Origin: Nemertoderma westbladi
Taxonomy: Eukaryota; Animalia; Xenacoelomorpha
Length of the DNA stretch: 48,108 nt
Direction of reading: 5' to 3'
NCBI GenBank assembly: GCA_032718475.1
Contig: JAUCBJ010005447.1
Location: 1-48,108 of the forward strand
The notes under the pieces were generated by a model. That model did no database searches. It saw only the letters and a list, made by a program, of their open reading frames with translations, and was not told the DNA's origin. The position numbers and the translations under genes were made by a program. This document shows positions 10,446 to 44,991 of this stretch, one piece after another; the first letter of the stretch is position 1, and every line of letters starts with the position of its first letter.

Positions 10446-11376
10446 ACTATTAAATAAACATGTCAGAAAGAATTCCTTGTCACTAATTTCAGTTCACCGA
10501 ATTTAAGACATTCTGTCCTCGTGTACCTGAGTTTTGCACTCGATTGAAATAGTCAATTAAAAAGAGACAAAAAGTGTTTCTTTCCTCTACATTTTTCGTA
10601 TCGAAGAACATTACTTTATCTGAAAAATTCACTTTTCCTCAGGAATACAGGGAAAAAGTTGCACTTTCGCTCACTATTGTTACTATTAATCACTAAAGTA
10701 GTTACAGAATGTCTTTCTATCACTAAGTTTATAATAGACAATGAGAAATTTTAACTCAGTCAACTCATCCGCGATTTCCCGTTATCCCAATTCTGGGACC
10801 CGGATCCGGGTGTGTTCGTCGGTGCGCCATACACGCACTGGATGACACGTGGAATGGGCGGAGTTCGTGACGTCGGCATACCGTTCGTCAGTGTGGCTCG
10901 CCAACGACGGTTTTGCATATTTGCAAAGGACTACCACGGAAATGTATGTGAACTTTATTATTATATAGTGTTCTTTGTTCTAGAGTTCTACAGCTCTACG
11001 AACTATTAGTAGTACTATTTATTAGTACCGGTAAAATATTTCTACTAAATCTTACTTTGTAGGCCTATGACACATATATTTATGGTGATTAGGTGATATA
11101 CAATACATGTACCAGATACACGGACACGATACACGTGTACGGTACAGAGTGGTTTGCTATACAAACCTCAATGAATACTGCTCACTGTGATTGATTTAAA
11201 CACATCCTTGAATATTATTCTCAAATTTTAATAATTTATAATAATATAGCTTACTCGACTCACGCAATGCATTGTTTATTCTTTTTTGATATAATAGATA
11301 GTAATTTTATCTTTATTATTGAGTCAACTTAGTTTAATTCATTATGTTTGCATTGCATTCCTTAGGCCGGCGTCAG

Positions 11377-11924
11377 TGTTAGCTTATTCAATCCCGCTAA
11401 CACCCCATAAAGTTAAGCCGATAAGCAATATTGGGAGCCACGAGATTGGGTAATTAACCAACTCGTGCCATCCCAATGAGAATGGGAAGGAGAAGCACAC
11501 AATGAGGGTCAGGGGCCAAACCCCTAACCCAGAGAGAACAGGTGGAGTGAACGGGAACACTCCAAAGGGCGCCAACAAGGGTATCAACCAATCAGAGGGG
11601 GGAAAGGCATCGATTAGGTAGAGTAACAAGGCCAACCGTGCAATATAGCCACTTGGCAGTAATCATATCAATTCAGTTATCTCAGTGCAATATTGGTGCT
11701 AGTTTAGGTTAGATAGTTTAGCTAGGGAAGGACCGGGACTTTAGTTACCGTATCCCGCCTTCCGTATACAACAACCATATTATCTCATATCTATACCTAT
11801 ATCTATATCTGTATACCCAAATATTATATACGACGAACAGCACAAACTCATTTACTCTTTATACACGGCGGGGACGCGTGAACTAACATCGGATAAACCG
11901 GGATCCCTCTTGGATCCCGTCACA
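11377..11924 (+). repeat. 5' LTR (548 bp)
   Basis: TGTTAGC...GTCACA. Differs from the 3' LTR by about 2 substitutions and 1 indel found by eye. Confidence 0.95.
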
Positions 11925-11996
11925 GTAACTAAATCAGAGCTGCCGCCCTAGCTAACTAAACTCAGCAACCACCAGCCACCAATCTGCAGAAGAGAG

Positions 11997-14900
11997 ATGA
12001 GTCGGTCAGGTGAGACGACACCGACACGGACCCCGGACGAAGAGCTAACGATCCGCGAGGCCGCAACCAGGCAACACAGGCCCACGACGCCGGAGCCATC
12101 GGTAACGGGCGACCCGGAAGTTCAAGATGAGGGGGACCGTCTGGAGTCAGAAGCCGAGTCGAGAGGAGGGGGAATCGAGTCGGAAGATAGAGAGAACGAG
12201 CTCGAGGGAGAAGGAGACGAGTCGACACGGGACGGGGGTCGACGCACCGGTGTCGCCGGCCAGCCACAGACCGAGGGCGACGAGTGGCCCACCGAAACGG
12301 CGACGGTGGGGCCGACGGTGCGGCGCCGGACGCGGAGAAATGGAGGAGTAATCGGTACCGATGTCGCCGGCCAGCCACAGGCCGAGGGCGACGGACAGCC
12401 CGCCGGAACGGCGACGGTGGGGCCGCCGGTACGACGTCGAACCCGGAGAGACGGACGAGAGGTCGGCGACGAGGACGTCGGGGTTTCTGAGCGACTTCGA
12501 CGGGCTTACAACGCGACCCGGAGACTACTAGAGGAGGCCAGAAAGGGGAAAACGATAGACGAGGTAAAACTAAAGTCAGGACTAGGTAAGTCGGACAGAC
12601 ATTTATATTATCTGATGCGCTTCGGGCAGAGAGAACTAGCCGAGGAGAGAGCGAAAGGGGTTGCCAGTGAACTGTTTGAACTATGGGAATGTGGGAGTAT
12701 GGAACCTAGCGTAGCGTCAGTGTACATAGGGCCATACTTGGTCGATGCCCGGGGAGTAAAATTAGTGGGCTGGAGGGGACCTGAAGGGGGCGAATCCGAG
12801 GTTAACCCCGAGGATTCGGCCTCGTCGGTCGGAGGAAGTTCCGGGAAGCGGGGGAAAGTTAGTGGATCGGGAAGGCGGAGGGAGTCCGTCGTAACCGATA
12901 AGTCTGCTACATCCTCCGCGAAAGGAAGACGGGTGAGAGAGGTAGGTGCCGCGTACCGTCTCGACCTGATAGAGCAAGGTCAGAAGGAAATGGATAAATG
13001 GATGAAATGGATTGGAGGAGGGGAGAATGCGGCTAGAGAGGGAAGCGACATTGATTAGAGAAACCGGAGAGAGGGCCGAAATGGCTTTGAGAGGCCTTGG
13101 GGAGTGTGAGGAAATAGAGGAAAAGGAGTGTAGGGAGCGTGAGGCGAGAGAGGAAAGGGAACGCAAGGAGCGTGAGGCGAGAGAGGAAAGGGAACGCAAA
13201 GAGCGTGAGGCGGAACGCAAGGAGCATGAGGCGAGAGAGGAAAGGGAACGCAAAGAGCGTGAGGCGGAACGCAAGGAGCATGAGGCGAGAGAAGAAAAGG
13301 AACGCAAGGAGCGTGAGGCGAGACGGGAAAGTGAACGCAAGGAGCATGAAGCGAGGCGAAGGGAGAGCGCTAGGAGAGTAGCAGAGCTGGCTGAGCGGGA
13401 CGCGCGGGAATGTGAGAGGAGAATGGTAGAAGCTGAGCGAGAGCAAAAGGAGCTAAAGAGACGCCAAGGTGAGCTTGCGGAACATAGGATTAGACGCATG
13501 CACGAGCTGCAACTGGTGCGGGCGGGGACGTCTGAGAGCGGGACTGGCTCGAGTATTCTAGGGGAGCCAGGGGCCGTGGATACATTTATTAATACCCCAC
13601 TTACAGGGACCGCACGACAGACCCAAAACTGGTGTGACCGTACGGGCGGGGGGGGGGGGGGGGGGGGTAATAATGATAATGGTACAGTAGACGTGGTTAA
13701 TATTAATAGTACCGTATGGGATAATTCTAATCAAACCTTTATTGCAGGAAATACTTTGCCTAGTGATAGTAATCTAAATTTAAATCAGAACAATCCTAAT
13801 ATTAATGTAGAAAATAATTCTAATATTAATGTAGAAAATAATTCTAATATTAACGTAGCTACGCAAAATAATCCAAATAATCAAAGTAATAATCCAAATT
13901 CGAACTTACAAAATAATTTAAGTAACGTAATTACACAAAATAATCCAAATAACTTAAATAATGATCCGAGCCCGAATTTACAAAATAATTCAGATAGTGT
14001 AGTCGCGCAAAGTAATACAAATGATTTTATTTCGAACGAACAAATTAATTCCGTTTCTAATATGGGTGCTATTAACATAAACACGTCGGGCGTGAATAGC
14101 CAGACAGAGGAGGGCCTGGTAGGTCGTACAGTTGGCGGGCCGGAAGTAGCTGGGTTAGGTAGACCCAGCGAGGGCCTGGTAGGCCACACAGTTGGTAGGC
14201 AGGGAGTAGCTGGGTTAGGTAGACCCAGCGAGGGCCTGATAGGCCACGTAGTTGGTAGGCAGGAAGAGGCTGGGTTAGGTAGACCCAGCGAGGGCCTGAT
14301 AGGCCACGTAGTTGGTAGGCAGGAAGAGGCTGGGTTGAATAGACCCAGCGAGGGCCTGGTAGGCCACACAGTTGGTAGGCAGGGAGTAGCTGGATTAGGT
14401 AGACCCAGCGAGGGCCTGGTAGGCCACATAGTTGCTAGGCAGGGAGCAGAGGGCCTGGTAGGCCACGTAATAGCAGAGGGAGAGGCGGGGGTGAATAGAC
14501 CCGACCGCGGTAGGGTTGATGTGTCGACTAGAAAGGGATATAGTAGCGGGGTGAGAGATGGCGAAATTAGATGTGGCGAGTGGGGGGGGGGGGGGGGGGG
14601 GGGTACGAGAACCCCACAACAGCGAATTAGCGGTGAAAGGGGGGGGGGCAGAGAGTGTCCCACAGCCGTCAGCGGATAATGCGCGGGCCGAAATAGGTAA
14701 ACCGCAACAACCGGCGACGGAAAGTAATAGGGGGATTGCGAGTATCCCCAGCGGCGTGCGACCGAGCAGAGAGAGACAGGTTGACGTCGTAAGAGGGCGG
14801 ACGAAGCGTCGAGCCCGATCGGAAGAGGGAAGAAGAACAGTGGGGTTTAACCGGGAGGTCGACGAGAGATCTCACGAGCGGGAATACTCCACTGAAAGGA

Positions 14901-15553
14901 GAAGAAGAGAAGACAGCAGTGGAGGTATCTCCGCGAATGATAGAAGAGCGAGGACGGATAGCGAGCCGTCGGTAGTTGAGATGAGAACGGAGAGTCGATG
15001 GGGTCGGACTCCGGGAGATTGCCGTCGCCCCGGAGAGATGCGACCCGGCGAGGCGGGCTACGCGCCGATGGAGGGGTACGCGATGTACCGGTACGACGAC
15101 GAGAACAGTAGGGGGGGGGGGGGGGGGGGGGGGGGTCGAAGAGAAACTTTCCGGCGGAATACACCTACCGATCGAGCATACGGTAGCCGCGGGGAGGATT
15201 ATTCGAGAAGAATAAACTTCGATCCCGAACAACACATGCAGACTGTAGGACATACTGTAGGCCTTACTGCACATACCATAGGCCATACTGAGAGAGGCAA
15301 TGTGGGCGATAGGACAGCGTGGACAACGGGATTAAACCCGGAAGTCGCGGAATACATACCGGCGGGTAGGCCAGAACCTGATAGGCCTATACCGGTACCA
15401 GTACAGCAGTATGACTACAGCATGCAGGGACATAACATATACCCAGGGGAGGGGGGAATTATTGCGGATAGGTGCATGGGCCCCAACATATTAACATCAA
15501 CCCCAGTACCAAACATACCGGTGGGGGGGGGGGGGGGGGGGGGGACAGGGTGA
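11997..15553 (+). CDS. Long low-complexity Gag N-terminal region, broken into three ORFs (11997-13058, 13012-14679, 14558-15553)
   Basis: First ATG after the LTR. Contains coiled-coil E/R repeats, an Asn-rich island and 20-aa repeats. Two of the frame changes fall in 22-nt G runs. Confidence 0.7.
14110..14470 (+). repeat. 60-bp coding tandem repeat in gag (GLVGHTVGRQGVAGLGRPSE)
   Basis: AGACCCAGCGAGGGCCTG recurs exactly every 60 bp from 14161 to 14401. Confidence 0.9.
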
Positions 15554-15611
15554 CATTTCCCCATCACAATATCAACAATATACCCCGATAGGAGCAAGAA
15601 CAACGAGACCC

Positions 15612-18600
15612 TTGGATGAGAATAGGTCGTGTGATACAGACATATGGAGGGGGCCGCTACCCCCGATGACATACCCGAGTCAGAGAAAGTCAAGAAGTAG
15701 GATGGACGAACCGCACCAGACAGGAGAAACTACACAACATCCGTCGAACCCATTGGAAGCACAGGCGATGGGGATGGCCACGTTGATCGATGCGTTGAAA
15801 ACGAGGATCGAGCTACCACCCGTGGAACCATTCAAATGCGATGGGAGCAGGCTGGAAGAATATCTACAGTTTCGGCGCATGTATAGTAACGAAATACTAA
15901 CAAAAAACTTGACGCAGGCGGAGTGTCTAAAGTATCTGCAAGTATACACGGGAGGCCCAGCATACGACATCGTGAGGCAATATCAAGGAATAGAGGGCGG
16001 CTTCACGACAGCATGGCGGGCACTGGATAGGGAATACGGGCACCCGGCCAAGATCATCAGGCAGACGCTGAGAGGCATAACATCGGGTGGCCTACAGGAT
16101 AATCCCTTTAGCATTAAAACATTTGCTAACAAAGTTGAAAAGGCGCTAATCGTGCTGAAGACGCTAGACGCGCCATACGAGCTCAACGCGTCCAACAACA
16201 TCACCACGATAGCGCAGGCACTACCAAACTGGCTGCGCAACAAGTGGAGGAAGATCGCTTTCTCCACTCAAGATAAGAAGGGTGCGGAACCGGGTTTAGA
16301 AGAAATGTCAAACTTCTTGAACTACGAGGCTGAGCTAATAACTGACCCAGTCTATAGCGAAGATAGCCTGGGAAAGGGACCGAAGACAGATTACCATAGA
16401 CCGAAACCGGAGCACAATACATCAAACGCATTACCGAGACTCAGGCAATCATTGCCATATGCAGCGACGCAGGGGACTGCAAGTCCACAGCTAGCCGAGG
16501 ATAAGACAACACCATGGAACGGACAGGGAAACAATAACAACACGAATAAACATAACCCCAGTACGTCCAGTAGGCTGAATCCAAACAATAAGAATAGTAG
16601 GGACTTTGGTACAAACGCAACTGCGATACGCAATGCATTGTATAAAGAGGGCTACGACCCAAAGAGCAAATGCCAGCTACACGCAAATGCGCTTCATCAA
16701 ACCATGAACTGCAGGTACTGGCAGGCGCTACCGAGGCAAGATCAGATAGATTATGCGTCGAGCAATAGAATCTGCTCGCGATGTGTAATGAGTGGACATA
16801 GAGCAAGGGAGTGCAAGGAGAAGCCGATAAAATTTGGTCAGAGGAGAGGCCAAACGATGGCGACGAGCACAGTAGGGGCGAAGAAGAGAGGAACAGTGTT
16901 ACTTGGAGTAGTACCCGTGCGAGTGATCGGGGAAGGCAATCGATCAGTAACAACACTAATGCTGGTTGATAGTGGAGCTGCCTTCACATTAGTCGAGGAA
17001 TGGGTAGCCGAAGAGGTAGGATTGAGAACGAGGCCAAGCAGAATGGCGGTAACAACCATCTCTAGCAAAGATGAGATCCTGGAGATGAGAACAGGACGGT
17101 GCGCAATTGCAGCAGTGGCACCAGGATGCGACTATGGGGCAACCATCGACCCCATCCAAGTGATAGAGTCAATTAATATCAATGCCAGGCGGCCAACCAA
17201 CATCGAGGTCGAGCAGTATAAATTCCTGGACGACATTGACTTCTCAATCCCAGACGTGGACGTTAGGAAGGTGTCCATCATAGTAGGTATGGACTGCCCA
17301 ACGGCCCACGAAAGAATGCAAACGGTCTTCGGCGAAGACAAGCAGAGTGACCCGGTGGCCATATTAACACCATTCGGGTGGACGCTGAGTGGTCCAATTA
17401 AGAGCAAGATACCTTTTAGGATGTCGGAGACATCAGAATGCATGTTCGCGGGAACAATGCAGGAAATGGGTGACGAGGGAGCAGAGGAGCATCTTAAAAG
17501 ACTGCTCAGACAGGATTTCGAGGGACTGAAAGAAACCGGAGTCGGGACCTCAGTAGAAGACAAGCAGGCTTTACAAAGCGTGGAGGAATCGATGACATGC
17601 AATGAGGGACGGTATACTATAGGAATGGTATGGAAATTACCGAAGATACCGCTGCCCGACAATAGGGGGATGGTACTCACGAGACTCCGCAAACTGAAAC
17701 AAACACTAAAACGGAGCCCCGAGAAGAATGAGTACATCCACAGAACGATTAAGAAGTACGTCGAGAAAGGATGGGCCGTGGAGTTACCGGTCGACGAGCC
17801 GAACACGGACAGGACATATTACCTGCCACTCCACGTGGCTTTAGATCCAAAGAAAGGTAAACTACGGATGGTAGTCGACGCATCGGCAAAGACCGACGGA
17901 AAATGCTTAAACGACTACCTGTTAGAAGGTCCAAACATATACAATTCGGGCATAGAGGTGTTACTTAGATTTAGAAATGGGAAACACGCCTTCACGTGTG
18001 ACATAGAAGGCATGTTCAACCAAGTCCGTGTAACGGAGGAAGATAGCGACAGTCAGCGCTTCTTATGGTATAACGGCGAGGAAGAACCGTCGATAATACC
18101 GGCATATAAGATGGTAGTACAGAACATGGGGGCCAAGTCGTCTTCATTTACGACGACTATGGCAGTGAGAGACATAGTGAAAGGGAAGGAAGATAGATAC
18201 AGCAGTAGGGCCGTCGATATGATTCGACGCGGCTTCTACGTAGACGACGGAATGGAGTCTGGAAATATGGTTAAGGAGATACTGGACACAGGGTGCGAGG
18301 TTCGCGACATCCTAAAGGGATCCGGCTTTAACCTGACCAAATTCCAATCCAGTTCGGAAGAATTTATCAATGCGATAGAGGACAAGAGGCCAGAATCGAC
18401 CATGGATAATCCCACAACAGTCAAAGGGCAGGACATGGCGATTAAGAGAACAGAATCTCAACAGAAGGCATTGGGAATCGTCTGGGATAGAGAGACAGAC
18501 GAACTGAAGTATCAGCTGAGCCAGGAGGGCGCAGACATCCACACGAAGAGGGGCTATGTATTGTATATAGCAAGGATATACGATCCCCTAGGCCTAGCAT

Positions 18601-19967
18601 CCCCATTATTAGTCACGGGGAAACAGATACTCAAGAGAGTATACAAACTGAAGGATGAGTGGGACGTAGAGGTACCAGAGGAAATCAAGAAACAGTGGAG
18701 CAAGTGGACAGGAGACTTGGAGGAGATGGGAACATACAACATGCCACGAGTGTATTTCCCGGATGGGAACATGACGAATCTGGACCTACACATGTTCTCC
18801 GACGCATCGTTGGAAGCGTACGGAGCGGCACTCTACTTAGTACAACGAGAGGGGGCTCATAAGCTCAGATTAGCCTTTAGCAAAGCAAAGTCAACGCCGC
18901 CAGATTCAGCATCAGTTCCCAAGTTAGAATTGACAGCTGCGAGACTAGGAGTTAGAGCCACAGCCTACCTAGTGGATACTATTCCCAACATAGTAGAGAC
19001 ACACTACTGGACGGACTCCATGGTAGTGCTTGGTTGGCTACACAACGAAAGGACGAGATACCCGATATTCGTCGCGAATAGAGTGGACGAAATAAGGGCG
19101 AGCACAGAACTGGAAAGGTGGCACTACTGCCCAACGGACGAGAACCCAGCGGACTTGTTGTCGAGGGGCGTGGTACGCCACACTTTCTTGAAGAAGGAAG
19201 TATTGTGGCAACATGGGCCACAATTTCTGAGCGATAAGGAGGCCTGGCCGCCGATGAGAAAGGTGGATCCGGGCTCAGAAGTAGTGTCAGAGGGAGAAGA
19301 GGGAGATTCAGAGGGAGAAGAGATATACTCCCAGATGGTGAGGGAGATTAGGGACGTGCAACCAGGACGAAAACTGTGCGATAACCCGACGGATAAACTC
19401 CTCAGCTACAGTTCTAGTTGGTATAAGACCAAGAAACTAGTGGCGTACTGGAGAGCCTTCGGGAACTTCCTTGCGGGAGTTGGCAAGGACAAGAAGGTCA
19501 GGACAACCATAGATCTGGAAGGAGCGGCTAAGGCAATCATCCGCTATGAACAACGGAAGAACTATGGCGACGAGGTGGAACGCGTCGGTAACCAACAGCA
19601 CCTCCGACGGGACAGCGAGCTGATTACGCTGTCGCCACAACTCAATGACGATGGGATTCTAGTAATGAATTCTAGGGTGGGATACAACAACAGCATAGTC
19701 GTACCACCGAAACCCATCATCATTCCCACAGGATCGCCAATAGTCCACCAGATTATCTGGGACTCCCATAAATCGATATTACATGGGGGCACCAACCGAA
19801 CCCTCACAGAGATAAGGAGGACCTATTGGGTCAAACAGCTGAGGAAGAAGGTAAAAGCGGTAGTGGGGCAGTGCCAGACCTGCCGACGAGCGAAGAAGGA
19901 GCGAGCCATACAGGAGATGGCGCCACTACCGGCGAGTAGGGTAATGTGGACATGTTCGGGCCGATAA
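15612..19967 (+). CDS. Gag core, Zn knuckles, aspartic protease, reverse transcriptase, RNase H and integrase HHCC (BEL/Pao polyprotein)
   Basis: Pao-type Gag core. CSRCVMSGHRAREC knuckle. LVDSGA protease. YLPLH..RMVVDAS, CDIEGMFNQV and YVDD in RT. FSDAS/PKLEL/WTDS/ENPADLLSRG in RNase H. H-x4-H..C-x2-C. Confidence 0.95.
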   Translation: MDENRSCDTDIWRGPLPPMTYPSQRKSRSRMDEPHQTGETTQHPSNPLEAQAMGMATLIDALKTRIELPPVEPFKCDGSRLEEYLQFRRMYSNEILTKNLTQAECLKYLQVYTGGPAYDIVRQYQGIEGGFTTAWRALDREYGHPAKIIRQTLRGITSGGLQDNPFSIKTFANKVEKALIVLKTLDAPYELNASNNITTIAQALPNWLRNKWRKIAFSTQDKKGAEPGLEEMSNFLNYEAELITDPVYSEDSLGKGPKTDYHRPKPEHNTSNALPRLRQSLPYAATQGTASPQLAEDKTTPWNGQGNNNNTNKHNPSTSSRLNPNNKNSRDFGTNATAIRNALYKEGYDPKSKCQLHANALHQTMNCRYWQALPRQDQIDYASSNRICSRCVMSGHRARECKEKPIKFGQRRGQTMATSTVGAKKRGTVLLGVVPVRVIGEGNRSVTTLMLVDSGAAFTLVEEWVAEEVGLRTRPSRMAVTTISSKDEILEMRTGRCAIAAVAPGCDYGATIDPIQVIESININARRPTNIEVEQYKFLDDIDFSIPDVDVRKVSIIVGMDCPTAHERMQTVFGEDKQSDPVAILTPFGWTLSGPIKSKIPFRMSETSECMFAGTMQEMGDEGAEEHLKRLLRQDFEGLKETGVGTSVEDKQALQSVEESMTCNEGRYTIGMVWKLPKIPLPDNRGMVLTRLRKLKQTLKRSPEKNEYIHRTIKKYVEKGWAVELPVDEPNTDRTYYLPLHVALDPKKGKLRMVVDASAKTDGKCLNDYLLEGPNIYNSGIEVLLRFRNGKHAFTCDIEGMFNQVRVTEEDSDSQRFLWYNGEEEPSIIPAYKMVVQNMGAKSSSFTTTMAVRDIVKGKEDRYSSRAVDMIRRGFYVDDGMESGNMVKEILDTGCEVRDILKGSGFNLTKFQSSSEEFINAIEDKRPESTMDNPTTVKGQDMAIKRTESQQKALGIVWDRETDELKYQLSQEGADIHTKRGYVLYIARIYDPLGLASPLLVTGKQILKRVYKLKDEWDVEVPEEIKKQWSKWTGDLEEMGTYNMPRVYFPDGNMTNLDLHMFSDASLEAYGAALYLVQREGAHKLRLAFSKAKSTPPDSASVPKLELTAARLGVRATAYLVDTIPNIVETHYWTDSMVVLGWLHNERTRYPIFVANRVDEIRASTELERWHYCPTDENPADLLSRGVVRHTFLKKEVLWQHGPQFLSDKEAWPPMRKVDPGSEVVSEGEEGDSEGEEIYSQMVREIRDVQPGRKLCDNPTDKLLSYSSSWYKTKKLVAYWRAFGNFLAGVGKDKKVRTTIDLEGAAKAIIRYEQRKNYGDEVERVGNQQHLRRDSELITLSPQLNDDGILVMNSRVGYNNSIVVPPKPIIIPTGSPIVHQIIWDSHKSILHGGTNRTLTEIRRTYWVKQLRKKVKAVVGQCQTCRRAKKERAIQEMAPLPASRVMWTCSGR

Positions 19968-20845
19968 AGATCAAAGTGATGCGACACACGGAGAAACGCT
20001 ACGGCATTATCTTCGTATGCAACAACACACGGGCGGTAGGGATAGAACTCGCCCAAGATGCAACCGCATCAGCATTCATTAATGCCTTAGAAAGGTTTAG
20101 AGACCGCAAAGGTGGGACGATCGCAGTGATATACAGCGACAACGGTACCAACTTTGTGGGCGCAGAGAGTGAGATGGCAGAGGCCTTGGACATCTTGGAG
20201 GGAGAAGAAGTCAGGGCAGCCATGAGACGACGACAAGTAAAGTGGGAGAGAAGGACGCCGTATGTACCACATACACTAGGATGCGTCGAGAGACTGGTGG
20301 GCAGTTCAAAGCGTCTAATGACGAAGCTAATGAACACCCACATGGTCACTGAGGACGTCTTACGGACAGTACTTGCGAAGTGCGAGGGGATCATTAATAG
20401 CAGACCGCTATATCCGGAGAATGATGACCCTGAGTCATTAGACGTGCTAACGCCTAGCCATTTCCTAATGGAAAGGCCAGCGACCATCGATATGCGGGGT
20501 GTAGACCCAGATGACATACACTCCCGCCAAAGTTGGAAAGTCGCTAAAGCAATAAGCGCAGAGTATTGGAGGAGGTGGGTCGAGGAATACCTACCCACAC
20601 TCCATAAAAGGAGTAAGTGGAGGAAGCCAAATAGGGAGTTAAGAGAGGGAGACCTCGTAATCGTTACGGATGATACTATCATCAACAACCAGTGGCGGTT
20701 GGCGAGAGTTGTAGGCACTTACTCCGACGAGGACGGAAGAGTCCGATCGGTAGAAGTGCGGATAGGTGGTAAGATAGGTGCGAAGGACAGAAAAACCTAC
20801 AGGAGGGCTGTGGGAAAATGCTGTCTGTTAGAAGGGGCACCTTAG
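19946..20845 (+). CDS. Integrase catalytic core and C-terminus, frameshifted from pol
   Basis: DMFGP, SDNGTNF, ERLV, INSRPL, LTPSHFL, WVEEYLPTLH and W-x-LARV motifs. Confidence 0.93.
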   Translation: MDMFGPIKIKVMRHTEKRYGIIFVCNNTRAVGIELAQDATASAFINALERFRDRKGGTIAVIYSDNGTNFVGAESEMAEALDILEGEEVRAAMRRRQVKWERRTPYVPHTLGCVERLVGSSKRLMTKLMNTHMVTEDVLRTVLAKCEGIINSRPLYPENDDPESLDVLTPSHFLMERPATIDMRGVDPDDIHSRQSWKVAKAISAEYWRRWVEEYLPTLHKRSKWRKPNRELREGDLVIVTDDTIINNQWRLARVVGTYSDEDGRVRSVEVRIGGKIGAKDRKTYRRAVGKCCLLEGAP

Positions 20846-20995
20846 TGGAGTTAGAGAAGAGTTTAGTCGTCCAAGTTTTGGACTGAGGGGGGTGGGATTG
20901 AGGGCGAGACGCCCTTCCCACACAAAAATAGAAAATAAAAATAAAAATAATAAGTACATAGTAGGTACCCAGTTAGTAGGCAGAAGTTAGTTAGG

Positions 20996-21640
20996 AGGTA
21001 CGTAGTACCGATAGTTAGTTAGAGAGTTAGAAGGTACGTAGTACCGATAGTTAGTTAGAGAATTAGAAGGTACGTAGTACCGATAGTTAGTTAGAGAATT
21101 AGAAGGTACGTAGTACCGCTAGTTAGTTAGAGAGATAGAGGGTACGTAAGTACCGCTAGTTAGTTAGAGAGATAGAGGATACCTAAGTACCGCTAGTTAG
21201 TTAGAGAGTTAAAGGGTACGTAAGTACCGCTAGTCAGTTAGAGAGTTAGAGGGTACGTAGTACCGTTAGTTAGAGAAGAGTTAGAGGGTACGTAGTACCA
21301 TTAGTTAGAGAAGAGTTAGAGGGTACGTAGTACCGTTAGTTAGAGTTAGAGTTAGAGGGTACGTAGTACCATTAGTTAGAGAAGAGTTAGAGGGTACGTA
21401 GTACCGTTAGTTAGAGGAGAGTTAGAGGGTACGTAGTACCATTAGTTAGAGAAGAGTTAGAGGGTACGTAGTAGCGTTAGTTAGAGGAGAGTTAGAGGGT
21501 ACGTAGTACCGTTAGTTAGAGGAGAGTTAGAGTTAGAGGGTACGTAGTACCGTTAGTTAGAGGAGAGTTAGAGGGTACGTAGTACCGTTAGTTAGTTAGA
21601 ATTAGAGTTAGAGGGTACGTAGTACCGTTAGTTAGAAGAG
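20996..21640 (+). repeat. ~33-40-bp purine-rich tandem repeat between pol and the extra ORF
   Basis: About 18 units of GGTACGTAGTACCGTTAGTTAGAG(A/G)AGAGTTAGAG. Confidence 0.95.
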
Positions 21641-22125
21641 AGAGAGTAAGAGGTAATAGGGGTGTATAAGATATAGATATTAGTTAGCAGTTAGTAGCGA
21701 GAGGGGGGCATATGAGTACAGCTGGGTAAATCGTGTGGCCACACGACGCATACTGCTGTACTGCATAGACCCACAGAGTAGGCCAGAATGTGGATTAGAG
21801 AATAGAATAATCCATAGGCAGTAGTAAGTAGTAGGACAGTAGAACCAAGATAAAATAGATAAAATAAATAGAATAGGGCTGAAAGTTACAAATAATGGCA
21901 ACACAAGGAAAGTTATTCTAGAACATAATAAAAGTAACGGACAGAAATCGTAAATTACGCTCATTTACTAGCTTCAAAATTAATTAGTAATAATTTAGGT
22001 TAAAAGGCGCAGTTAAGTAGGAAATAGGCCATTATCGAACCGTACAGAACATCCTAGATACATCACTCATCTGTATTGCGCCTTGGTAAGGCACCACCTT
22101 GCAGGTGAGCGAGTGAGTGTTCGGA

Positions 22126-24664
22126 ATGGCGAGCAAATTAATCAGAAAGAGAAAGGCGGAGTCAGGAGGAAAGGAGATACTGGTGGATTTCACCGAGAGG
22201 CATCCGGAAGAGAAGACGAGAGGATACTACGAGAGGTTGGAAAGGGGTCACGCGGCGCGAGCGCTGCAGGATCACTTCAGGGAGATGCACGAACAGTGGC
22301 TGGTCGGGACCTACGGGACGCCGTCGCTGGACAACGCGATCTTCCAACACTTCCACTACGTGGTGAAAGGGGACGAGGCGAAGTTCGGGATTCCGAAGTA
22401 CCCGAGGGAATCACCGAGGAAGGACTGGAAGAGATTCATAGAGTCCGTCAACAGAGGAGGATATATGATCCTAGACGACGAGGGAACCGTGGAAGACGAG
22501 GCGGGTTCGAGACGAGGATCGGCGGGGTCGGCCAGGACCATACTCCTACATTTGGCCGCGCCAAATGGGGACATCTTCTTATTCGATCTAGGAACGTATG
22601 GGAAGAAGGACGGGCCGAAATTAAACCGGTTACCGAAAGCGGTACAAGTCTTGGTAAGAGAGAAGTCGACGACGAAAGTGGGATCGGCGATTCGCGAGGA
22701 TGCGGAGAGAATCATCGGTCCGGACGCCACCAACCTCCTGGATATGCAGAAGGTCTTTATGGCTGTGATGGCACCGGATGGGTTGGGGGTAGTCGAAAAC
22801 ACAGGCCAATGCGGGGCGGTGACAATGGGCCAGCTATTGGGGCTCGTATGCCACAAACCGATGGATTGGGGGAAGTTCAGGGAAGAATACGGAGCAGAAC
22901 TAGCGAACTCGCTAAAGTGGGGAGCGAGACCGGGAAAGCAGGAAGTATATCAGTTCCGCAGGGGAGCGATAAAGGTATATCAGAAGCGATATATCCTGCA
23001 GGAGGACTGGATGGTGATAAGTTTGCTTAACTTATTCATGACTGTGGTTATCGAGAGGGAACCAGGGGCATTTCTGTTATCGGGATCTAAGCTACAGGAG
23101 AGCCTTTAAAGTGGCCTTCGACGGTCTGGTAGACCACCCGGGGCTGAAGGGCGAGTCGGTGTACTACAACAGCCGGCATCTGGTAGACGGGGAGACAGAT
23201 ACACCGTATCAGAGATGGGAGCAGCTAGAGACGGATAGACGAGAAGCAAAGCGACTGGAAGAAGTCGCTAGACGGGAGAGGATAGAAGCAGAGGAGAGGG
23301 AAGAGGAGGCCAGGACGCAGAGTTACGGCTTCGAGGAACAGGCAGGCTTAGACGAACTTCATTGGACTTCATCAGGGAGTTCGGGGGAGTCTCTAGGGCG
23401 AGAATTGGGATGGACGGTGGGATCGCCGAAACAGTCGACGTCGGGGTTGCAAACGATGCCCATACCAGCGGGCGCCGAAGGCGACCAACCGCCAAGGAAG
23501 TTAAGGGAGTTAGAGGGATGGAGAGCTACGGGCGAGAGCCAAGACGGGAAGGGACATAGTGGATCCATCGGGATACCGGGGTTGGAGTCACTGCCAGAGG
23601 AGGACGACGACGACGAGTTCGGAGAGATGCCGCCCATCGAGAGGATAGGCCACTCGGACACGGACTGGGTTGGCGGAAGGGTGGTGACGGCCAGTGGGGC
23701 GAGGGCCTTCTGGAACAGATCCGGCAAGCGGACCTGGGTGCACGAGGAGTCGGCGATGGATTTCGCGGGGAGCACTATCAGGTTGGGCGAGCAACCGGGG
23801 ACGGCACCACGGATAGTATTCGGGGAGACAATGCCCGAGAGGGGCGGAGAGATCGACGTAGATAGAGACACCAACGTGGAGAAGTTCGCCTACCAGCGAC
23901 TCCACAGACCGCGGAGATCGCTTGGGACGAAAGACGAGGTGGGACGGGAGACATTGGTACTCGGCTGCGACTACTGTGGGAGACAGACCCACCAGGAAAG
24001 GAGCTGCTTGTACCGGTTCCAGAAGGGAACCTTTTGTTTCTACTGCCGAGAGCCAAGCCACAGGATGGGGGCGTGTCCACGGTTGCATAACCGATGTCCA
24101 AAGTGCCACTTTCGGGGACACTACGGACGCGAGTGCGACTGGATGAACGACGAGGAGAAGTTCACAAGATTCGAGGAGTGGGCCGACGTCGGGGCCATGA
24201 CGCGCCAGTGCATGAAGGCCCAGGAGTTCAAGTGGGGTTTCTTCCTTATCAATCAGGAGACTCACATGGAAATCAAAAAGCGGAGGCTACCGTTTACCTA
24301 CCAAGAGGTAGCAACGGCGGCGTCGTACGCCGGAGTGATGAACACGCAAAGATATTTGGACAGGTGGACACCACAGAACCGAAGGGAGTTTAGGGATTTC
24401 TTGGCGGAACACGTACCACAAGCAATGAAGATGATCCTATGGGACGCCACCAGAGGGAGACAACCGGGCCACTCTGAGGGGCCACCGGCGAAGCGATATC
24501 GGGCACTAATAACACCAGCGCCCAAGGAGCCAACGACCGGGATCAGCAGGGAGGTGGCGGCGAAGGTCCGAAAGCAGAAAGCGGATCCCAGAGGAACGGT
24601 GGTAACCAAGAAACGACCCAGGGAAGAGGACGCCAGGGGGAACTATCCCCAGAGGAACAGATAG
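22126..24664 (+). CDS. Extra ORF: DEDDy-like 3'-5' exonuclease plus three CCHC zinc knuckles (frameshift at ~23087)
   Basis: ILDDEG; LLHLAAPNGDIFLFDL; LPKAVQVLV..TKVGSAIREDA; LLDMQ; W..RP..YQKRYILQED. Knuckles CDYCGRQTHQERSC, CFYCREPSHRMGAC, CPKCHFRGHYGREC. The second copy reads through the frameshift. Confidence 0.72.
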
Positions 24665-25369
24665 GTTCCCAGAGCCGAGGGAGAGAGACTGAGACTTGGA
24701 CTTGGTGCGCCTGGAAGGCGCCGCGTGGGACGTACGAACTATTAAGTACAAATTTAATTAATGCAAATAATCATATAAGTGCAATTTGTATGTACGTACG
24801 TAGTAATTAGTAATCTACGAATATATACGCTCGAAGTAAGTACTATAGTCATACAACCTTTCTCAATTAGCTACTGGGACTGGGGGGTAAACTGACTATG
24901 GCACTATGGACGAGACACCAGACAATTTCACACTTCTTGAGTGCGACGGCACAAGAGGGGGGGAGATTCGTCAGAAGGGATGAGGTAGTCAGAGTGGGGT
25001 TGAGGGACGGAGTAGTAGGTGTGAAGTGCGGAGAGAATGCGGACGCAATTCTAGTGTGGGGGGGGGGGGAGAATAAGAGGCTGAGTGAGGGACGAGGAGG
25101 TCCGAGTGTATGAGAGAGTTAGGATGAGAGTGAAGAAGAGATAGGGCGGAAGTGTTGGGGAAACAAAAGTTGCGTGAGAGGTGAGCGCGATCGGCCCGAC
25201 ATGAGACGCCAAGCACACAGGGTAGCGTTATCATACCCATAGGGAGCGGCCTGGAAAGCCGGCTCCGAGAGAAAATAATTCCACCCCACACCCGATACTA
25301 GATCGGGATCCAGCGGGATTGTAGCGGACTTTTTTGGTTGATGCTATCTTCTTACTGGGAAGATAGCAT

Positions 25370-25378
25370 GGGGGGGAG
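25370..25378 (+). promoter_or_regulatory. Polypurine tract
   Basis: GGGGGGGAG directly abuts the TG start of the 3' LTR. Confidence 0.85.
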
Positions 25379-25925
25379 TGTTAGCTTATTCAATCCCACT
25401 AAACCCCATAAAGTTAAGCCGATAAGCAATATTGGGAGCCAGGAGATTGGGTAATTAACCAACTCGTGCCATCCCAATGAGAATGGGAAGGAGAAGCACA
25501 CAATGAGGGTCAGGGGCCAAACCCCTAACCCAGAGAGAACAGGTGGAGTGAACGGGAACACTCCAAAGGGCGCCAACAAGGGTATCAACCAATCAGAGGG
25601 GGGAAAGGCATCGATTAGGTAGAGTAACAAGGCCAACCGTGCAATATAGCCACTTGGCAGTAATCATATCAATTCAGTTATCTCAGTGCAATATTGGTGC
25701 TAGTTTAGGTTAGATAGTTTAGCTAGGGAAGGACCGGGACTTTAGTTACCGTATCCCGCCTTCCGTATACAACAACCATATTATCTCATATCTATACCTA
25801 TATCTATATCTGTATACCCAAATATTATATACGACGAACAGCACAAACTCATTTACTCTTTATACACGGCGGGGACGCGTGAACTAACATCGGATAAACC
25901 GGGATCCCTCTTGGATCCCGTCACA
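25379..25925 (+). repeat. 3' LTR (547 bp)
   Basis: Direct repeat of 11377-11924, followed by TSD GTCAG. Confidence 0.95.
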
Positions 25926-28879
25926 GTCAGGAATAATATGATGAAGGGGGAATGTTAGTCGGAGATTGCAATCAAGAAAGTTGTTGCGTTCCCCGACTTT
26001 GCTGTTGGTGGCAACCCCACCAGCAGAATGAAGAGGAAGGCTGCCAGTGACGTCAAGGAGGTCCTTCGTCTTGGTTCTGCCACCGGGGAGTGCCACTATG
26101 GCGATGTTGGGGGCCTAACTGTCTACTGGGTTATGGTCCCCGACGTACATTCCCACGCCGCCCAATTAGTCGGTGATGCGGCCCGTCCATTCCAGCGGAC
26201 TACGGATGATGTCATGGCCTACATGAAGTCGCAAGTTGCTGCTGGGTTTTACTCCATTCCCGCACTACGCCGAGCCAACGAGGTCTTCGTGGAGGGAATG
26301 GTGTCGGACACGCGTCTTGCAGAGATGCCAGACTTGAGCTCTAGGCGGTTGGTATTGTTGGTGGCAGGTGGCAGGCCTATCGTTATTGTTTGAAGTATAC
26401 CTATATGTATATATATTTTATTTAGTTTTACCAACGTTATTTGGTAGTCAAACAAATGATAATTTGTATACAGGTAGTGATAGAGAGTTGAGACGATAAA
26501 AATACACTATAGTAATTTAGACAGAGCTGATTACGCTGATCACAAAAATTTATTTCCGTTATTAAATTGACATACCTTTTAGCTATTATTTAATTTTATA
26601 GTTTTTCATATTATTTTTTATGGTTTATTAGTTATAGTTATATATATATTATGTGTAATGTCCTTTAATTGCTTAATTAATAAATTGGTTAATTTTTCAG
26701 TCTGTAAAATTTACTTTATATTATGCTTTTACAGGTACTTCATGACACCTAAGGACCTCAGCAACATGGTCCAAAGGCATCGGCGAGACGTCGGGACCCC
26801 GAGTACGGAGGCTCACGATGTCGCCCAGTTGGCGAGTTTGGTGGACCACTACCGGAATCAGGGCTGCTTCGTGCAGGTCCGGTACCCGGCGGATGGCCAG
26901 CATCTCGCCATGGCAGTAGTTCCGCGTCAGGGAGTCCAGTTGTTGCATCGCTACGGCGACATGTGCGTACTGCTTGACGGGACGTACAAGACAACCAGGT
27001 TCAACCTGACGCTGAATTTGCTGGTTGTGAAGGGCAACGTCATGTACGTGCCTGTTGCCCTTCTCCTGGTCGACGGGGACGGCGAAGAGCCGTTGTCTTT
27101 GTGCCTGCGTTGGGTCCGTGAGTGGACGGGAGTGGTTCCTAGAGGAGGAATGACTGAAGTCTAAGACACTGTAGAGTGTAGGCTAGGGCCTACATTATGA
27201 TATGCATCAAAGGCAAAGCTGTTCTCCAAAATGTAGGGCTTGCTTTGGGGGACATACTGTACACTATATCTGTATCTGGTATCCCTTGGACGAACACCAC
27301 TCGCTACGTTCTCCCAACATCAAACACAGCGCAGGGATGGACGTTGTTGTTTGTTTACATGTTACGGGTATCTATTCTATCAAATGTTGAAGTGAAAGCC
27401 GTTTCGGGAGATTATCACTACTACTTGACACATCCGAGGATTCGGAATATTAGGATTCATGGGAATCACTGGCCTCGTCGTCTGTTATGTCGTAACCATA
27501 CTAGTTTAGGGACATACGTTGCCTCTTTGGGATATGGTTCCGTTGCCTCTTTGGGATATGGTTCCATCATAAATTATAATGTACGCTAAATGAGGGGGGG
27601 GGGGGGGGGGGGGTGGTCTAATTATAAAATATAATCAAATATATAAAATATGCCCGCACGAAAGGGTTAAAAAGCATAATTGCTCTCGTTCTGTATATCT
27701 GATCACCAATTATACATCTTACAACATTCCACCTGTTCTGAACAAATTCATATATTATCCTTCAGAGTGCTAAACCAGATGGTTTATGAGTATATTCAAC
27801 GCACTTTTCGTATTCATTAAAACACTCCTTGCGCTCTTCCTGTACATCTTGTCATCAAAATATATAGCTTACAACATTCCACTCCCAGTTTTGAACAAAA
27901 TGATAACTCTTTCAATATGCTACTGTATATCAGGCGGTTTAGGGTTATATATAGTAAACGCAGTACTCGTCTTCATTAAAAGCCTCGTTGCGCTCGTCCT
28001 GTTTTGACTGAGAGTATTTTTCACAAACTTACACTTACGACCTTTATAACTATGTAAATTCTCGAAACTGCGCGTGGAACTGCTGATTTATGGCAGATGG
28101 ACATATACTGTACAATATATACAGTAGTTCATACCAAGCTTTTGAGAAAATACCGACAGCGTTACATATACGGCAGGTTGGCTAGAAATAGCTGCATTGA
28201 AATGGAAACTCTAACCATAATATTCTGCGTAAAGTGAATTTTAATACGACAGATTTCGATAATTATTGACGCCGACTATGCCGTAAGACTATGACTATAT
28301 AACTAAATATAATACTTTATCAGAAGACAGTCTGTAAGTAAGCAATAAGTCTGTGATGTGCAACTGCAAGCCTATTTAATCCCAGCTGTTTATGTTATTA
28401 TTTATACCGTTGTCTTGACAGTGCATCTTAGCAACTAAGCGCCTCCTGTAATTGTATTGGCTGTTACTGCTTTCTACCTTACCCTCAGCTTATGTCGAGT
28501 CTGTGGAGTGAATTTAGCATCACCCGATGGCAACAAATAGTCACCGATAGGTTGGCCTACACAAACGAACAGGTACAGACAGTACTTACTCCTGCAGCTG
28601 TCATAATCAATGGTATACCATTGGAGCAAGTATTAATTTATTTATGGTCAAACACTTCAGCAATAGAATAATGCAAATTAAACGTGGGTTCCCAACTATT
28701 GAGTTCTATAATTTAATATTTTCCTTTTAGTCAATAAAATTAAATGAATAACAATAAAAATAGAGAGTATACATATAGATAATCCTAAAACAATGTTGTA
28801 AAATAAATCATAAATGAAATTACATTTCATAACATGGCATAAAATAAATGGGTTTAATGGCAATATGGTTCGTTTGTGG

Positions 28880-29960: not shown

Positions 29961-30924
29961 AAAAGGCCAATTACCAAGAACCACCGCTGTATAAAACCCT
30001 AGTACTTACTACCCTATCACAATTACTGTAGTACACTATGTACATAATTCCATGATAGGCATAGTTATAAAAAAATACTATATAAATTGGAGAAAATACA
30101 AAATACCTTAATATCAGTCGTATTGCGACTGATATTTCACAAAAAGATAGAAGATAAATAATCGGAACACAACTCCAGTCAACACAACACAACAGTCTGA
30201 GAGAAAGTAATACCAGCCCCTACATGTCATTATTATTAACCTATAAAACATTTGAACGGCCCAGTGCTTAATATTCAATCAGCTCGCCTCCTACCTAACA
30301 CAGCAGTGAGTAACATTATGGTTATGGATATTGATATTCCTGTGGGATTCACTGGGAAGAGCTATTCAGCTGACGGGTAATAATACATTGCAAACTATCA
30401 ATACTTATTGCCCGGTTATCAAGTTATTTTCCCGTATATTTTACCCGAGGGCAGGAATAACCCGAGGGCGCAGCCCGAGGGTTTCCTGCCCGAGGGTAAA
30501 ATATATTTTGTAAACTGGATCAAAATAGTGATAAAGTGCCCCGCCCTATCTAAATAGGACATTTGGAGCCTAGTCAGCCAGGATCTGAAATATTTCTTAA
30601 GTTTCCCGACACATTCACGGGTAATTATTTAAAAGTTTCATGATTTAAAGAAGACTATGTAACATCGGTGTTTATTGTTCTTAGATAGGACGCAGTTTCA
30701 CAGAGATTTGAGCTCATTGAGGATACATTCGAGAATATTCACTAACTCGCTACTGTATGCTCGTTCTTGTGAATGCCTGCACTTGACCCCTGTGTGACAG
30801 AGACAGAAACACTTTAGGGCCTACTTTATATCGAATACAGAAAAACTAATAATATATTAGGACTTCATATTGGTGCATGCGGAACCATTTATAGTAGACA
30901 TATTAATATCAAGGAAACTCATTG

Positions 30925-31035
30925 TGTAGTGGCTTAACAGTTTAATTAAATCAGAGCCTTGAACTCGGGTCTCTGACTCCAGATGTTTGTGGGTTCGAGT
31001 CCAGGAAGGTGGCCAGGGAAATTTTCATTCCGGAC
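30925..31035 (+). mobile_element. tRNA-derived SINE-like head (mirror copy at ~35980-36090, minus strand)
   Basis: TAGTGG box-A-like motif and GGTTCGAGTCC box B. The downstream GGCCAGGG.A.TTTTC is shared with 37602-37690. Confidence 0.45.
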
Positions 31036-44900: not shown

Positions 44901-44991
44901 CGTAACTACATGGCCTTGCAGGCTCTTGCTGGTCGGACCACCTGTGTCCCCTACATTCGTATTAATAGCACTGTTATCAATAATATTGTTA
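38950..44991 (-). mobile_element. Decayed, internally deleted relative of the BEL element (gag, protease, start of RT, integrase end, spacer, extra ORF)
   Basis: 42732-43676 is nearly identical in protein to the Gag of copy 1. LVDNGA protease. 38950-40084 matches the extra ORF. Many stops; most of RT-RH-IN is missing; no LTR in the window. Confidence 0.93.
40170..40975 (-). repeat. Complex tandem repeat spacer of the second BEL copy
   Basis: ~70-bp units with CTACGTGGCGCTTTCGGTGCCCAC, GGTACTATGTACC units, and a (CTAACTYTTA)n-like microsatellite. Confidence 0.85.

What the first reader, a model, noticed from the sequence alone, without database searches (positions are those of the whole stretch)
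22126..24664. BEL/Pao retrotransposon carries a DEDDy exonuclease-CCHC cargo gene in the env position
Seen: a sense ORF between integrase and the 3' LTR with no evident transmembrane or env features. Its motifs line up with WRN/EXD2/Mut-7/RNase D-type exonucleases: ExoI DDE, LLHLA..FLFDL, KVG..IRED, W..RP..Q.RY...ED. An acidic linker and three CCHC knuckles follow. The diverged second copy keeps the same protein, which suggests selection. Known: DEDDy ORFs have been described in bdelloid rotifer retroelements, and EXD1, Mut-7 and Nibbler act in small-RNA/piRNA pathways. Inference: an element-encoded RNA-binding nuclease for primer or RNA trimming, RT proofreading, or anti-silencing. ExoIII spacing is atypical, so it may be catalytically altered.
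Basis: partly seen in the sequence, partly recalled or inferred. Interest (0 to 1): 0.85.

Follow-up and report, generated by a model that had tools for sequence, protein, structure and literature searches.

The report
BEL/Pao retrotransposon with exonuclease-knuckle cargo gene
A high-copy BEL/Pao jumping gene of an animal carries, where an envelope gene would sit, a conserved extra gene (broken in this copy) that joins a predicted RNase D/WRN-type exonuclease domain to three zinc knuckles and likely trims RNA ends of the element itself, possibly the primer of its predicted tRNA-free copying.

Summary
An LTR element with BEL/Pao marker domains (11377-25925) has a sense third gene between integrase and the 3' LTR. 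In this copy the gene is split by a frame break near 23086; other copies read through in one frame.

The N-terminal part resembles RNase D/WRN-type exonucleases. ESM Atlas scores it 0.94, and a profile of 43 bacterial domains scores it above all shuffles and all 214 other window frames. Pfam, PDB and the large protein searches found nothing. ExoI and ExoII are canonical. ExoIII aligns best as Y-x3-E, Glu for the catalytic Asp, and that half alone is not significant. Three CX2CX4HX4C knuckles follow an acidic linker.

Against the second copy dN/dS is 0.045, but that copy lacks ExoI, ExoII and the knuckles. The element also has no TGG-type primer site; the 9 nt after the LTR pair with its own LTR (13 of 5000 shuffles), as in self-priming elements.

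DEDDy third genes are published for rotifer retroelements; I found none for BEL/Pao. Verdict: new variant of a known kind; activity and target untested.

The parts
11372..11376 (.). 5-bp target-site duplication, left copy
   Evidence: identical to 25926-25930
11377..11924 (+). 5' LTR, 548 nt, TG...CA
   Evidence: 545 of 547 aligned bases identical to the 3' LTR, one 1-nt gap
11740..11748 (+). 9-nt LTR segment complementary to the primer-site position; candidate self-primer (also 25741-25749 in the 3' LTR)
   Evidence: only occurrences of this 9-mer on the + strand of the window are the two LTR copies
11925..11933 (+). primer-binding-site position, flush with the LTR end; no TGG in the first 30 nt
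   Evidence: 13 of 5000 LTR shuffles give a flush match of 9 nt or more
11952..20845 (+). gag-pol (long low-complexity Gag N-terminus, DUF1759, two Cys-His boxes, protease, RT, RNase H/Peptidase_A17, integrase, DUF5641), read in five frames in this copy
20989..21644 (+). tandem array, period about 35 nt, 18 copies, between pol and the third gene
   Evidence: also covered in the DNA runs X1-X3
22126..23109 (+). third gene, first frame (327 aa): basic N-terminus, then DEDDy-like exonuclease domain (about aa 95-312)
22474..22482 (+). ExoI motif, D117-x-E119
   Evidence: aligned to the invariant D-x-E of 43 exonuclease domains
22699..22701 (+). ExoII Asp, D192
   Evidence: aligned to the invariant ExoII Asp; family contigs vary at its third codon position
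22990..23010 (+). ExoIII region, Y289-x3-E293-D294-W295
   Evidence: register from MAFFT; same residues in copy 2; not significant alone
23080..23090 (+). frame break of this copy (small deletion relative to other copies)
   Evidence: copy 2 is one open frame across it
23042..24664 (+). third gene, second frame (540 aa stop to stop; homologous to copy 2 from about 23090): charged helix, acidic linker, conserved segment of unknown fold, knuckles, C-terminal region with basic clusters
23966..24136 (+). three CX2CX4HX4C zinc knuckles
   Evidence: weak Pfam zf-CCHC_4 E 0.007 below cut-off; nucleocapsid-like PDB hits E 0.05-3
25370..25378 (+). polypurine tract
   Evidence: G-rich run directly before the 3' LTR
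25379..25925 (+). 3' LTR, 547 nt
25926..25930 (.). target-site duplication, right copy
38950..40084 (-). diverged copy 2: fragment of the third gene (matches 22783-23918, 78-79% nucleotide identity), one open frame
40963..44932 (-). diverged copy 2: integrase end (40963-41163) and gag-protease region (41737-44932); no LTR match found

Best explanation
The third gene is a selected accessory gene of a BEL/Pao family, and its product likely works as an RNA-binding 3'-5' trimming enzyme on the element's own RNA. SHOWN: position in the element, purifying selection on the part that can be compared, three canonical knuckles, no membrane segment, ExoI/ExoII similarity to RNase D/WRN-type domains, no TGG-type primer site and a flush 9-nt complement in the LTR. 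INFERRED: the domain has the DnaQ fold with a D-E-D-E acidic set and some activity; the knuckles hold single-stranded RNA and feed its 3' end to the nuclease, as in trypanosome RND; the substrate is element RNA. The most specific candidate is the self-primer: after the transcript's LTR segment pairs with the primer site and is cut, the enzyme would trim the 3' end back to the paired base so that reverse transcriptase can start. This copy is broken and would need the protein from another copy.
For: BEL/Pao markers Peptidase_A17 E 1e-39, DUF5641 E 6e-25, DUF1759 E 3e-10. ESM Atlas: WRN-like exonuclease cluster (PF01612 on 38% of members), score 0.94, 184 of 256 features; 24 of 30 hits carry this family set; 10 of 10 best named hits share family or clan. 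Profile tests: (hhalign E 0.0005, probability 32%). dN/dS 0.045 (95% interval 0.01-0.09) against 0.073 for Gag and 0.065 for protease. 31 of 40 listed family differences in 22441-23040 lie at third codon positions and none of the 40 changes D117, E119 or D192 (35 further rows were not shown). All four catalytic positions are acidic. Precedent for exonuclease plus tandem CCHC trimming RNA 3' ends: TbRND (PMC7797062, passages). Self-complementary primer site: 13 of 5000 shuffles flush, 40 of 5000 within 0-3 nt; paired in the minimum-energy and centroid folds.
Against: No Pfam, NCBIfam or PDB sequence hit for the domain. The single-sequence structure model failed (pLDDT 33); the pLDDT 72 model used a DEDDy alignment. 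The ExoIII half does not score alone, and the catalytic Asp position holds Glu. Inactive DEDD domains (EXD1, Maelstrom per PMC5408684; Egalitarian, recalled) are also conserved. The start of transcription is unknown, so the 9-mer is not shown to be the RNA's 5' end; it was noticed after the fact and has no covariation test. Earlier scan notes describe self-priming BEL/Pao elements in other genomes without mentioning any exonuclease gene (unchecked), so self-priming may not need one. Basic clusters at both ends suggest a nuclear protein, which fits particle-internal priming less well.
Confidence: 0.4

Rival explanations
1. The domain is a pseudo-nuclease. With the knuckles it binds element RNA and acts as an adaptor for export, localisation or packaging, like Egalitarian or EXD1 domains, perhaps making up for a Gag that has only two Cys-His boxes.
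For: Glu at the ExoIII Asp position; insertions around ExoIII; Gag has two boxes instead of the usual three in both copies (PMC554778 passages); basic clusters RKRK, KKRR, KRPR; 18 tandem hairpin-like repeats upstream could be binding sites (inference).
Against: ExoI and ExoII acids and the ExoIII Tyr are kept, and the fourth position is still acidic; rotifer ORF3s also carry a D-to-E change (DEED) and were judged possibly active (PMC5408684).
Confidence: 0.25
2. The protein counters host small-RNA silencing, by over-trimming piRNA or siRNA precursors or by competing with Nibbler/Mut-7/EXD1-type host factors.
For: Host relatives of this fold act in small-RNA pathways (PMC5408684 discussion); the family is abundant (summed contig depth about 10,000-78,000 across the gene in three DNA runs; not a copy number); rotifer DEDDy-bearing Juno1/2 tend to higher copy number.
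Against: The same paper reports low-copy DEDDy-bearing Vesta2/5 and no clear correlation; strong purifying selection rather than rapid change in the exonuclease half; mature piRNAs are usually 2'-O-methylated and resist 3' trimming (recalled).
Confidence: 0.2
3. The enzyme acts on DNA: proofreading for reverse transcriptase or polishing of cDNA ends before integration.
For: WRN and PolA-type DEDDy domains act on DNA; the bacterial WRN-like subset scored the domain better than the RNase D subset (5.0 vs 2.5 bits); Dada DNA transposons carry a DEDDy domain proposed to process DNA ends (PMC3706591, passages).
Against: It is a separate gene, not fused to RT or integrase; retroviral-type knuckles favour RNA; both subset scores are low.
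Confidence: 0.1
4. The gene is a captured host fragment with no role for the element, or the exonuclease likeness is chance.
For: No database homologue; broken in this copy; truncated in copy 2.
Against: dN/dS 0.045 at near-saturated synonymous divergence; open frame kept in copy 2 and in contigs of four runs; shuffle and frame controls; same A-rich purine skew as gag-pol.
Confidence: 0.05

Closest known systems
DEDDy-exonuclease ORF3 of bdelloid rotifer LTR retrotransposons Juno1/2 and Vesta2/5, shared with Athena/Terminon elements (Rodriguez, Kenefick, Arkhipova 2017, PMC5408684; parts 1-3 of 5 read, the whole main text)
   Same: Sense third ORF downstream of pol, RNase D-like DEDDy domain, no transmembrane segment, one Asp-to-Glu change in the tetrad, function untested.
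   Different: Host element here has BEL/Pao markers; Juno and Vesta are gypsy-like (recalled). The changed residue is ExoIII (D-E-D-E), not DEED. The protein is much longer (about 850 aa) with three tandem CCHC knuckles; the paper notes only a Maelstrom-like Cys-His-Cys motif in Vesta2/5. Purifying selection is seen here between diverged copies. Common origin was not tested.
Trypanosoma brucei RND (PDB 7C42 series; PMC7797062, passages read)
   Same: DEDD exonuclease followed by a linker and tandem CCHC knuckles; RND trims RNA 3' ends and its knuckles grip the RNA.
   Different: Cellular mitochondrial enzyme with four knuckles and a 28-aa linker; here three knuckles after about 280 aa. Sequence similarity is not significant (knuckle region E 0.87), so this is an analogy.
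env-bearing BEL/Pao elements Tas and Cer7 (PMC554778 passages; PMC3118150 passages)
   Same: BEL/Pao element with a third gene at this position.
   Different: Their gene is an envelope; this one has no membrane segment and has nuclease and knuckle features.
Dada DNA transposons of Laccaria and Ectocarpus (PMC3706591, passages read)
   Same: Transposon-borne DEDDy domain.
   Different: Inserted in a DDE transposase of a DNA transposon, all four residues canonical.
Self-priming Tf1/sushi chromoviruses (10.1101/2022.12.06.519325 and PMC6317226, passages read)
   Same: No tRNA-type primer site; the sequence after the 5' LTR pairs with a segment of the LTR, with adjacent helices.
   Different: Described in Ty3/gypsy (and proposed in some plant copia), not BEL/Pao in those passages; they carry no exonuclease gene; here only two of the three 'pretzel' duplexes are predicted and the RNA start is unmapped.

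Membership tests
BEL/Pao LTR retrotransposons | Paired TG...CA LTRs, target-site duplication, polypurine tract | tested here: met
BEL/Pao LTR retrotransposons | gag-PR-RT-RH-IN order with Pao-specific domains (Peptidase_A17, DUF1759, DUF5641), DSG protease and YVDD RT motifs | tested here: met
   motifs as listed in PMC554778
BEL/Pao LTR retrotransposons | Triple Cys-His box in Gag (characteristic, but the accepted member Tas lacks it per PMC554778, so not treated as defining) | tested here: not met
   two boxes only, the first with His for the second Cys, in both copies
BEL/Pao LTR retrotransposons | RT phylogeny inside the clade, and sub-lineage | not tested
   no reference BEL/Pao proteins were fetched
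DEDDy (DnaQ-like, RNase D/WRN group) exonucleases | ExoI D-x-E after a hydrophobic strand | tested here: met
   D117/E119
DEDDy (DnaQ-like, RNase D/WRN group) exonucleases | ExoII Asp | tested here: met
   D192 in KVG..I.ED
DEDDy (DnaQ-like, RNase D/WRN group) exonucleases | ExoIII Y-x3-D | tested here: not met
   Y-x3-E then D; half not significant alone. Filed as a DEDDy-like variant, not a canonical member
DEDDy (DnaQ-like, RNase D/WRN group) exonucleases | DnaQ/RNase H-like fold | tested here: inconclusive
   single-sequence model failed; alignment-guided model pLDDT 72 matches RNase D at Z 13.1, rmsd 3.5, 175 aligned but is not independent; ESM features agree
DEDDy (DnaQ-like, RNase D/WRN group) exonucleases | Two-metal 3'-5' exonuclease activity | not testable with these tools
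   needs an assay
Bdelloid retroelement DEDDy ORF3 group | Third ORF downstream of pol, no TM segment | tested here: met
Bdelloid retroelement DEDDy ORF3 group | DEED variant of the tetrad | tested here: not met
   ExoII is Asp, ExoIII is Glu
Bdelloid retroelement DEDDy ORF3 group | Groups with Juno/Vesta/Athena ORFs in a tree | not tested
   their sequences were not returned by any search
Envelope genes of LTR elements | Signal peptide and transmembrane anchor | tested here: not met
   hydropathy maxima 1.42 and 0.36; basic N-terminus
Tf1-type self-priming | No tRNA-type site; LTR-complementary sequence directly after the 5' LTR | tested here: met
   9 nt flush, 13 of 5000 shuffles; not compared with a tRNA library
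Tf1-type self-priming | Three-duplex structure around the primer helix | tested here: inconclusive
   primer helix plus a short LTR-end helix and an internal LTR helix are predicted; no leader-to-LTR duplex; z-score -2.0, 9 of 200 shuffles fold as well
Tf1-type self-priming | Complementary segment is the 5' end of the transcript | not testable with these tools
   no raw RNA reads were available

The most novel reading that the evidence does not exclude
A tRNA-independent BEL/Pao family encodes its own primer-maturation enzyme: an RNase D-fold exonuclease with a D-E-D-E active site and nucleocapsid-like knuckles that trims the element's self-primer to the exact base where reverse transcription starts.
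Probability: 0.15. Interest if true: 0.85.

Novelty: new variant of a known kind. Interest (0 to 1): 0.62.

Why it matters
DEDDy cargo in retroelements has been an unexplained feature of rotifer elements since 2017. Finding it in a second LTR superfamily, under purifying selection as strong as Gag and fused to RNA-binding knuckles, shows that it does something for the element. The architecture (as in trypanosome RND) and the self-complementary primer site turn a vague proposal, '3'-end processing', into testable ones: substrate, activity of a D-E-D-E site, and co-occurrence of the gene with tRNA-free priming across families.

Tried and rejected
SEARCHES WITHOUT A HIT. First frame: none of 3487 near-length and none of 5139 longer candidates; 0 of 1.84 billion cluster representatives at E 0.001; PDB sequences; Pfam and NCBIfam; phages; viral and metagenome contigs. 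Integrase in viral contigs: none. Knuckle region: none of 29 candidates; Atlas hits under 0.9, CCHC families only. These collections hold few animal transposon proteins, so the blanks do not show uniqueness.

STRUCTURE. The single-sequence model was unusable. Fold searches of the alignment-guided model returned only DnaQ-fold proteins at the top, as expected from its input; their ranking (Egalitarian first in Foldseek) is not used as evidence.

EXPRESSION. No RNA holder listed; run X6 is only guessed to be RNA and is kept as contigs. No spliced subgenomic RNA could be tested.

PRIMING VARIANTS. Splice-junction primer: of 644 donor-acceptor pairs in the LTR none gave a match longer than the unspliced 9 nt. 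3'-end primer: no AATAAA or ATTAAA in the LTR and none of 13 hexamers tested lies just upstream of the 9-mer. No Rfam match in the element, no tRNA gene in the window.

OTHER. No whole genome is held, so copies could not be counted or compared in full. dN/dS for the Gag knuckle region was saturated and is not quoted. Literature searches with the phrase 'BEL Pao' miss the spelling with a slash and carry little weight; one search used 'Pao' alone instead.
Full report
ELEMENT. The window holds a complete LTR element at 11377-25925. The LTRs are 548 and 547 nt, begin TG and end CA, and agree at 545 of 547 aligned bases with one gap; a 5-bp target-site duplication flanks them. A G-rich polypurine tract precedes the 3' LTR. 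Pfam finds Peptidase_A17 (E 1e-39), DUF1759 (3e-10), Integrase_H2C2 (2e-12) and DUF5641 (6e-25), plus weak protease, RT and rve hits in gag-PR-RT-RH-IN order. This is a BEL/Pao-type element; I did not place it in a sub-lineage. Gag has two Cys-His boxes, not the usual three, in both window copies (usual state from PMC554778, passages). gag-pol lies in five frames, two of the joins at long G runs that could be sequencing errors. This copy is therefore young by its LTRs but probably not autonomous (inference).

THE THIRD GENE. After the integrase stop (20845) come an 18-copy tandem array (20989-21644) and a sense gene from 22126 to 24664. It lies in two frames, 327 aa and 540 aa stop to stop, with a break near 23086. 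Window copy 2 is one open frame across this place. Contigs of all 4 runs laid also differ from the window there by a small insertion, at depths 6853 of 19169, 3628 of 5079, 7887 of 15680 and 4.45 of 4.45. The family gene is thus a single ORF of about 850 codons. Whether other copies share the break cannot be told from contigs. Summed contig depth over the gene is about 10,000-78,000 in the three DNA runs (two studies; X1 and X2 are one sample and may be the window's source), so the family is abundant, although this is no copy number.

IS IT A DEDDY DOMAIN? Standard searches are blank: Pfam, NCBIfam, PDB sequences, two scans of the 5.8-billion-protein set and phmmer over 1.84 billion representatives. 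Two other lines are positive. First, ESM Atlas gives a WRN-like exonuclease cluster (PF01612 on 38% of members) at 0.94 with 184 of 256 features; 24 of 30 hits carry this family set, and the two top hits are unnamed eukaryotic clusters. Shuffled proteins reach 0.9 in 4-10 of 100 cases by the tool's own note. Second, I built a profile from 43 bacterial PF01612 domains: 17 WRN-like and 26 others, mostly RNase D and NrnC-type, kept by a motif filter from 50 loci. The domain scored 10.0 bits, above all 1000 shuffles (max 5.0). It ranked first of 215 window frames (E 0.009, next 0.72). With hhalign it gave E 0.0005 but probability only 32%, and beat 150 of 150 shuffles (28.6 vs max 21.2). With the subsets alone the scores were 5.0 bits (0 of 1000 shuffles as high) and 2.5 bits (2 of 1000). 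The aligned part covers ExoI (D117, E119) and ExoII (D192).

EXOIII AND FOLD. MAFFT puts Y289-I-L-Q-E293-D-W in register with Y-A-A-T-D-A-W, with Gln and Tyr invariant over 45 rows, after a 12-residue insertion. So the spacing is normal and the catalytic Asp is replaced by Glu, with an Asp next to it. This half alone is not significant (446 of 1000 shuffles score as high). AlphaFold failed on the single sequence (pLDDT 33). With the DEDDy alignment it gave pLDDT 72, pTM 0.73, with 86-88 over the ExoIII helix, matching RNase D at Z 13.1, rmsd 3.5 over 175 residues. That shows compatibility, not independent proof. I put the DnaQ fold at about 0.9 and catalytic activity at about 0.55.

REST OF THE PROTEIN. 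A charged helix and an acidic linker (23% D+E) are followed by a segment near 23610-23900 that is well kept in copy 2 and has no Pfam hit. Three CX2CX4HX4C knuckles follow; no other of the 215 window frames has more than one. Their database hits are weak and nucleocapsid-like. There is no hydrophobic segment above 1.42, and basic clusters sit at both ends.

SELECTION. Copy 2 matches only 22783-23918 of this gene. Over 100 exonuclease codons dN/dS is 0.045 (bootstrap 0.01-0.09; differences by codon position 13/4/45); over 276 linker codons 0.21 (0.15-0.30). Gag gives 0.073 and protease 0.065. In family contigs, 31 of the 40 listed differences in 22441-23040 are at third positions and none of the nine others falls in a catalytic codon; 35 rows were not shown. 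In the wider lay, 9 of 18 listed differences inside the gene were at third positions, mostly at places where this copy differs from nearly all others, consistent with some decay of this copy. Selection on the knuckles was not measured.

PRIMER SITE. The 30 nt after the 5' LTR contain no TGG. The first 9 nt are the exact complement of LTR positions 364-372, flush with the LTR end. 13 of 5000 dinucleotide shuffles of the LTR give such a match, 40 of 5000 within 0-3 nt. Folding from that point pairs the two segments in both minimum-energy and centroid structures (pair probability 0.85; z -2.0). This resembles Tf1-type self-priming (10.1101/2022.12.06.519325 and PMC6317226, passages), but only part of the three-duplex structure is predicted, the RNA start is unknown, and no second LTR family was available for covariation. 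I noted this before consulting earlier scan notes. Those notes report self-priming BEL/Pao elements in several other genomes and RRP6-like third genes in Gypsy elements; they are unchecked leads, not support. I tested two variants from them, a splice-junction primer and a poly(A)-site primer, and found neither.

MECHANISM. The best-supported reading (0.40) is an RNA-binding 3'-5' trimming enzyme acting on element RNA. The knuckles would grip single-stranded RNA and present its end, as ZF1-2 do in trypanosome RND, which joins a DEDD domain to four CCHC knuckles (PMC7797062, passages). Maturing the self-primer is the most specific candidate (0.15 overall). Rivals are a catalytically dead RNA adaptor (0.25), an anti-silencing factor (0.20), a DNA-end or proofreading enzyme (0.10) and a functionless passenger (0.05).

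KNOWN OR NEW. DEDDy third ORFs are described in bdelloid Juno and Vesta LTR elements and Athena/Terminon elements (PMC5408684, main text read; PMC6431247, passages), and a DEDDy insert in Dada DNA transposons (PMC3706591, passages). I found no report for BEL/Pao in searches for Pao + LTR retrotransposon + DEDD (9 papers, listing only except PMC5408684), Belpaoviridae + exonuclease (1 paper, listing), LTR retrotransposon/DEDDy/additional ORF (20 of 70 listed) and (4 papers; passages of PMC6338049). The word 'exonuclease' does not occur in the main text of three surveys that cover BEL/Pao (PMC3118150, PMC6238403, PMC8220671); their supplements, which hold element sequences, were not examined. 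Searches for self-priming or primer sites with Pao gave no BEL/Pao case in the listings or the passages read. Repbase and subscription journals were not searchable, so an unpublished annotation is possible. Verdict: new variant of a known kind, interest 0.62.

Noticed in passing
window 11925-11933 with 11740-11748: No tRNA-type primer site; flush 9-nt complement to the element's own LTR, a candidate for self-priming in a BEL/Pao element.
   Followed up: partly
window about 16660-16830 (Gag Cys-His region; approximate) and copy 2 at 42297-42731 (-): Gag has only two Cys-His boxes, the first with His in place of the second Cys, in both copies; the third BEL/Pao box is missing.
   Followed up: partly
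window 20989-21644: 18 tandem copies of a 35-nt unit with a short internal palindrome between pol and the third gene; copy 2 has different tandem repeats at the equivalent place (40285-40972).
   Followed up: no
window 11952-15553: Very long low-complexity Gag N-terminus (coiled-coil repeats, Asn-rich stretch, 20-aa repeats), in frames joined at G runs; dN/dS 0.44 against copy 2 in one part.
   Followed up: no
window 30393-37057: THAP / P-element-type transposase (32360-34763, minus strand, two frames) between long, 90-97% complementary inverted repeats with internal palindromes; resembles foldback P-family elements such as Galileo (name recalled).
   Followed up: no
window 38609-38900 (-): Short HECT C-lobe-like frame (Pfam HECT E 0.007, below cut-off) continuing the truncated third gene of copy 2; probably a chance junction with a neighbouring sequence.
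   Followed up: no
window 45849-47591 and 26583-27164: Open 580-aa DDE_1 (pogo/Tigger-type) transposase frame, and a MULE transposase fragment.
   Followed up: no
run X6 (organism B), contigs over 22162-24648: A second organism label holds pieces of the same third gene at 89-97% identity, in one frame across the break; the run is only guessed to be RNA and could be a relative or carry-over.
   Followed up: no
window 7663-8382 and 1311-2301: Tandem arrays with periods of 45 nt and about 162 nt.
   Followed up: no
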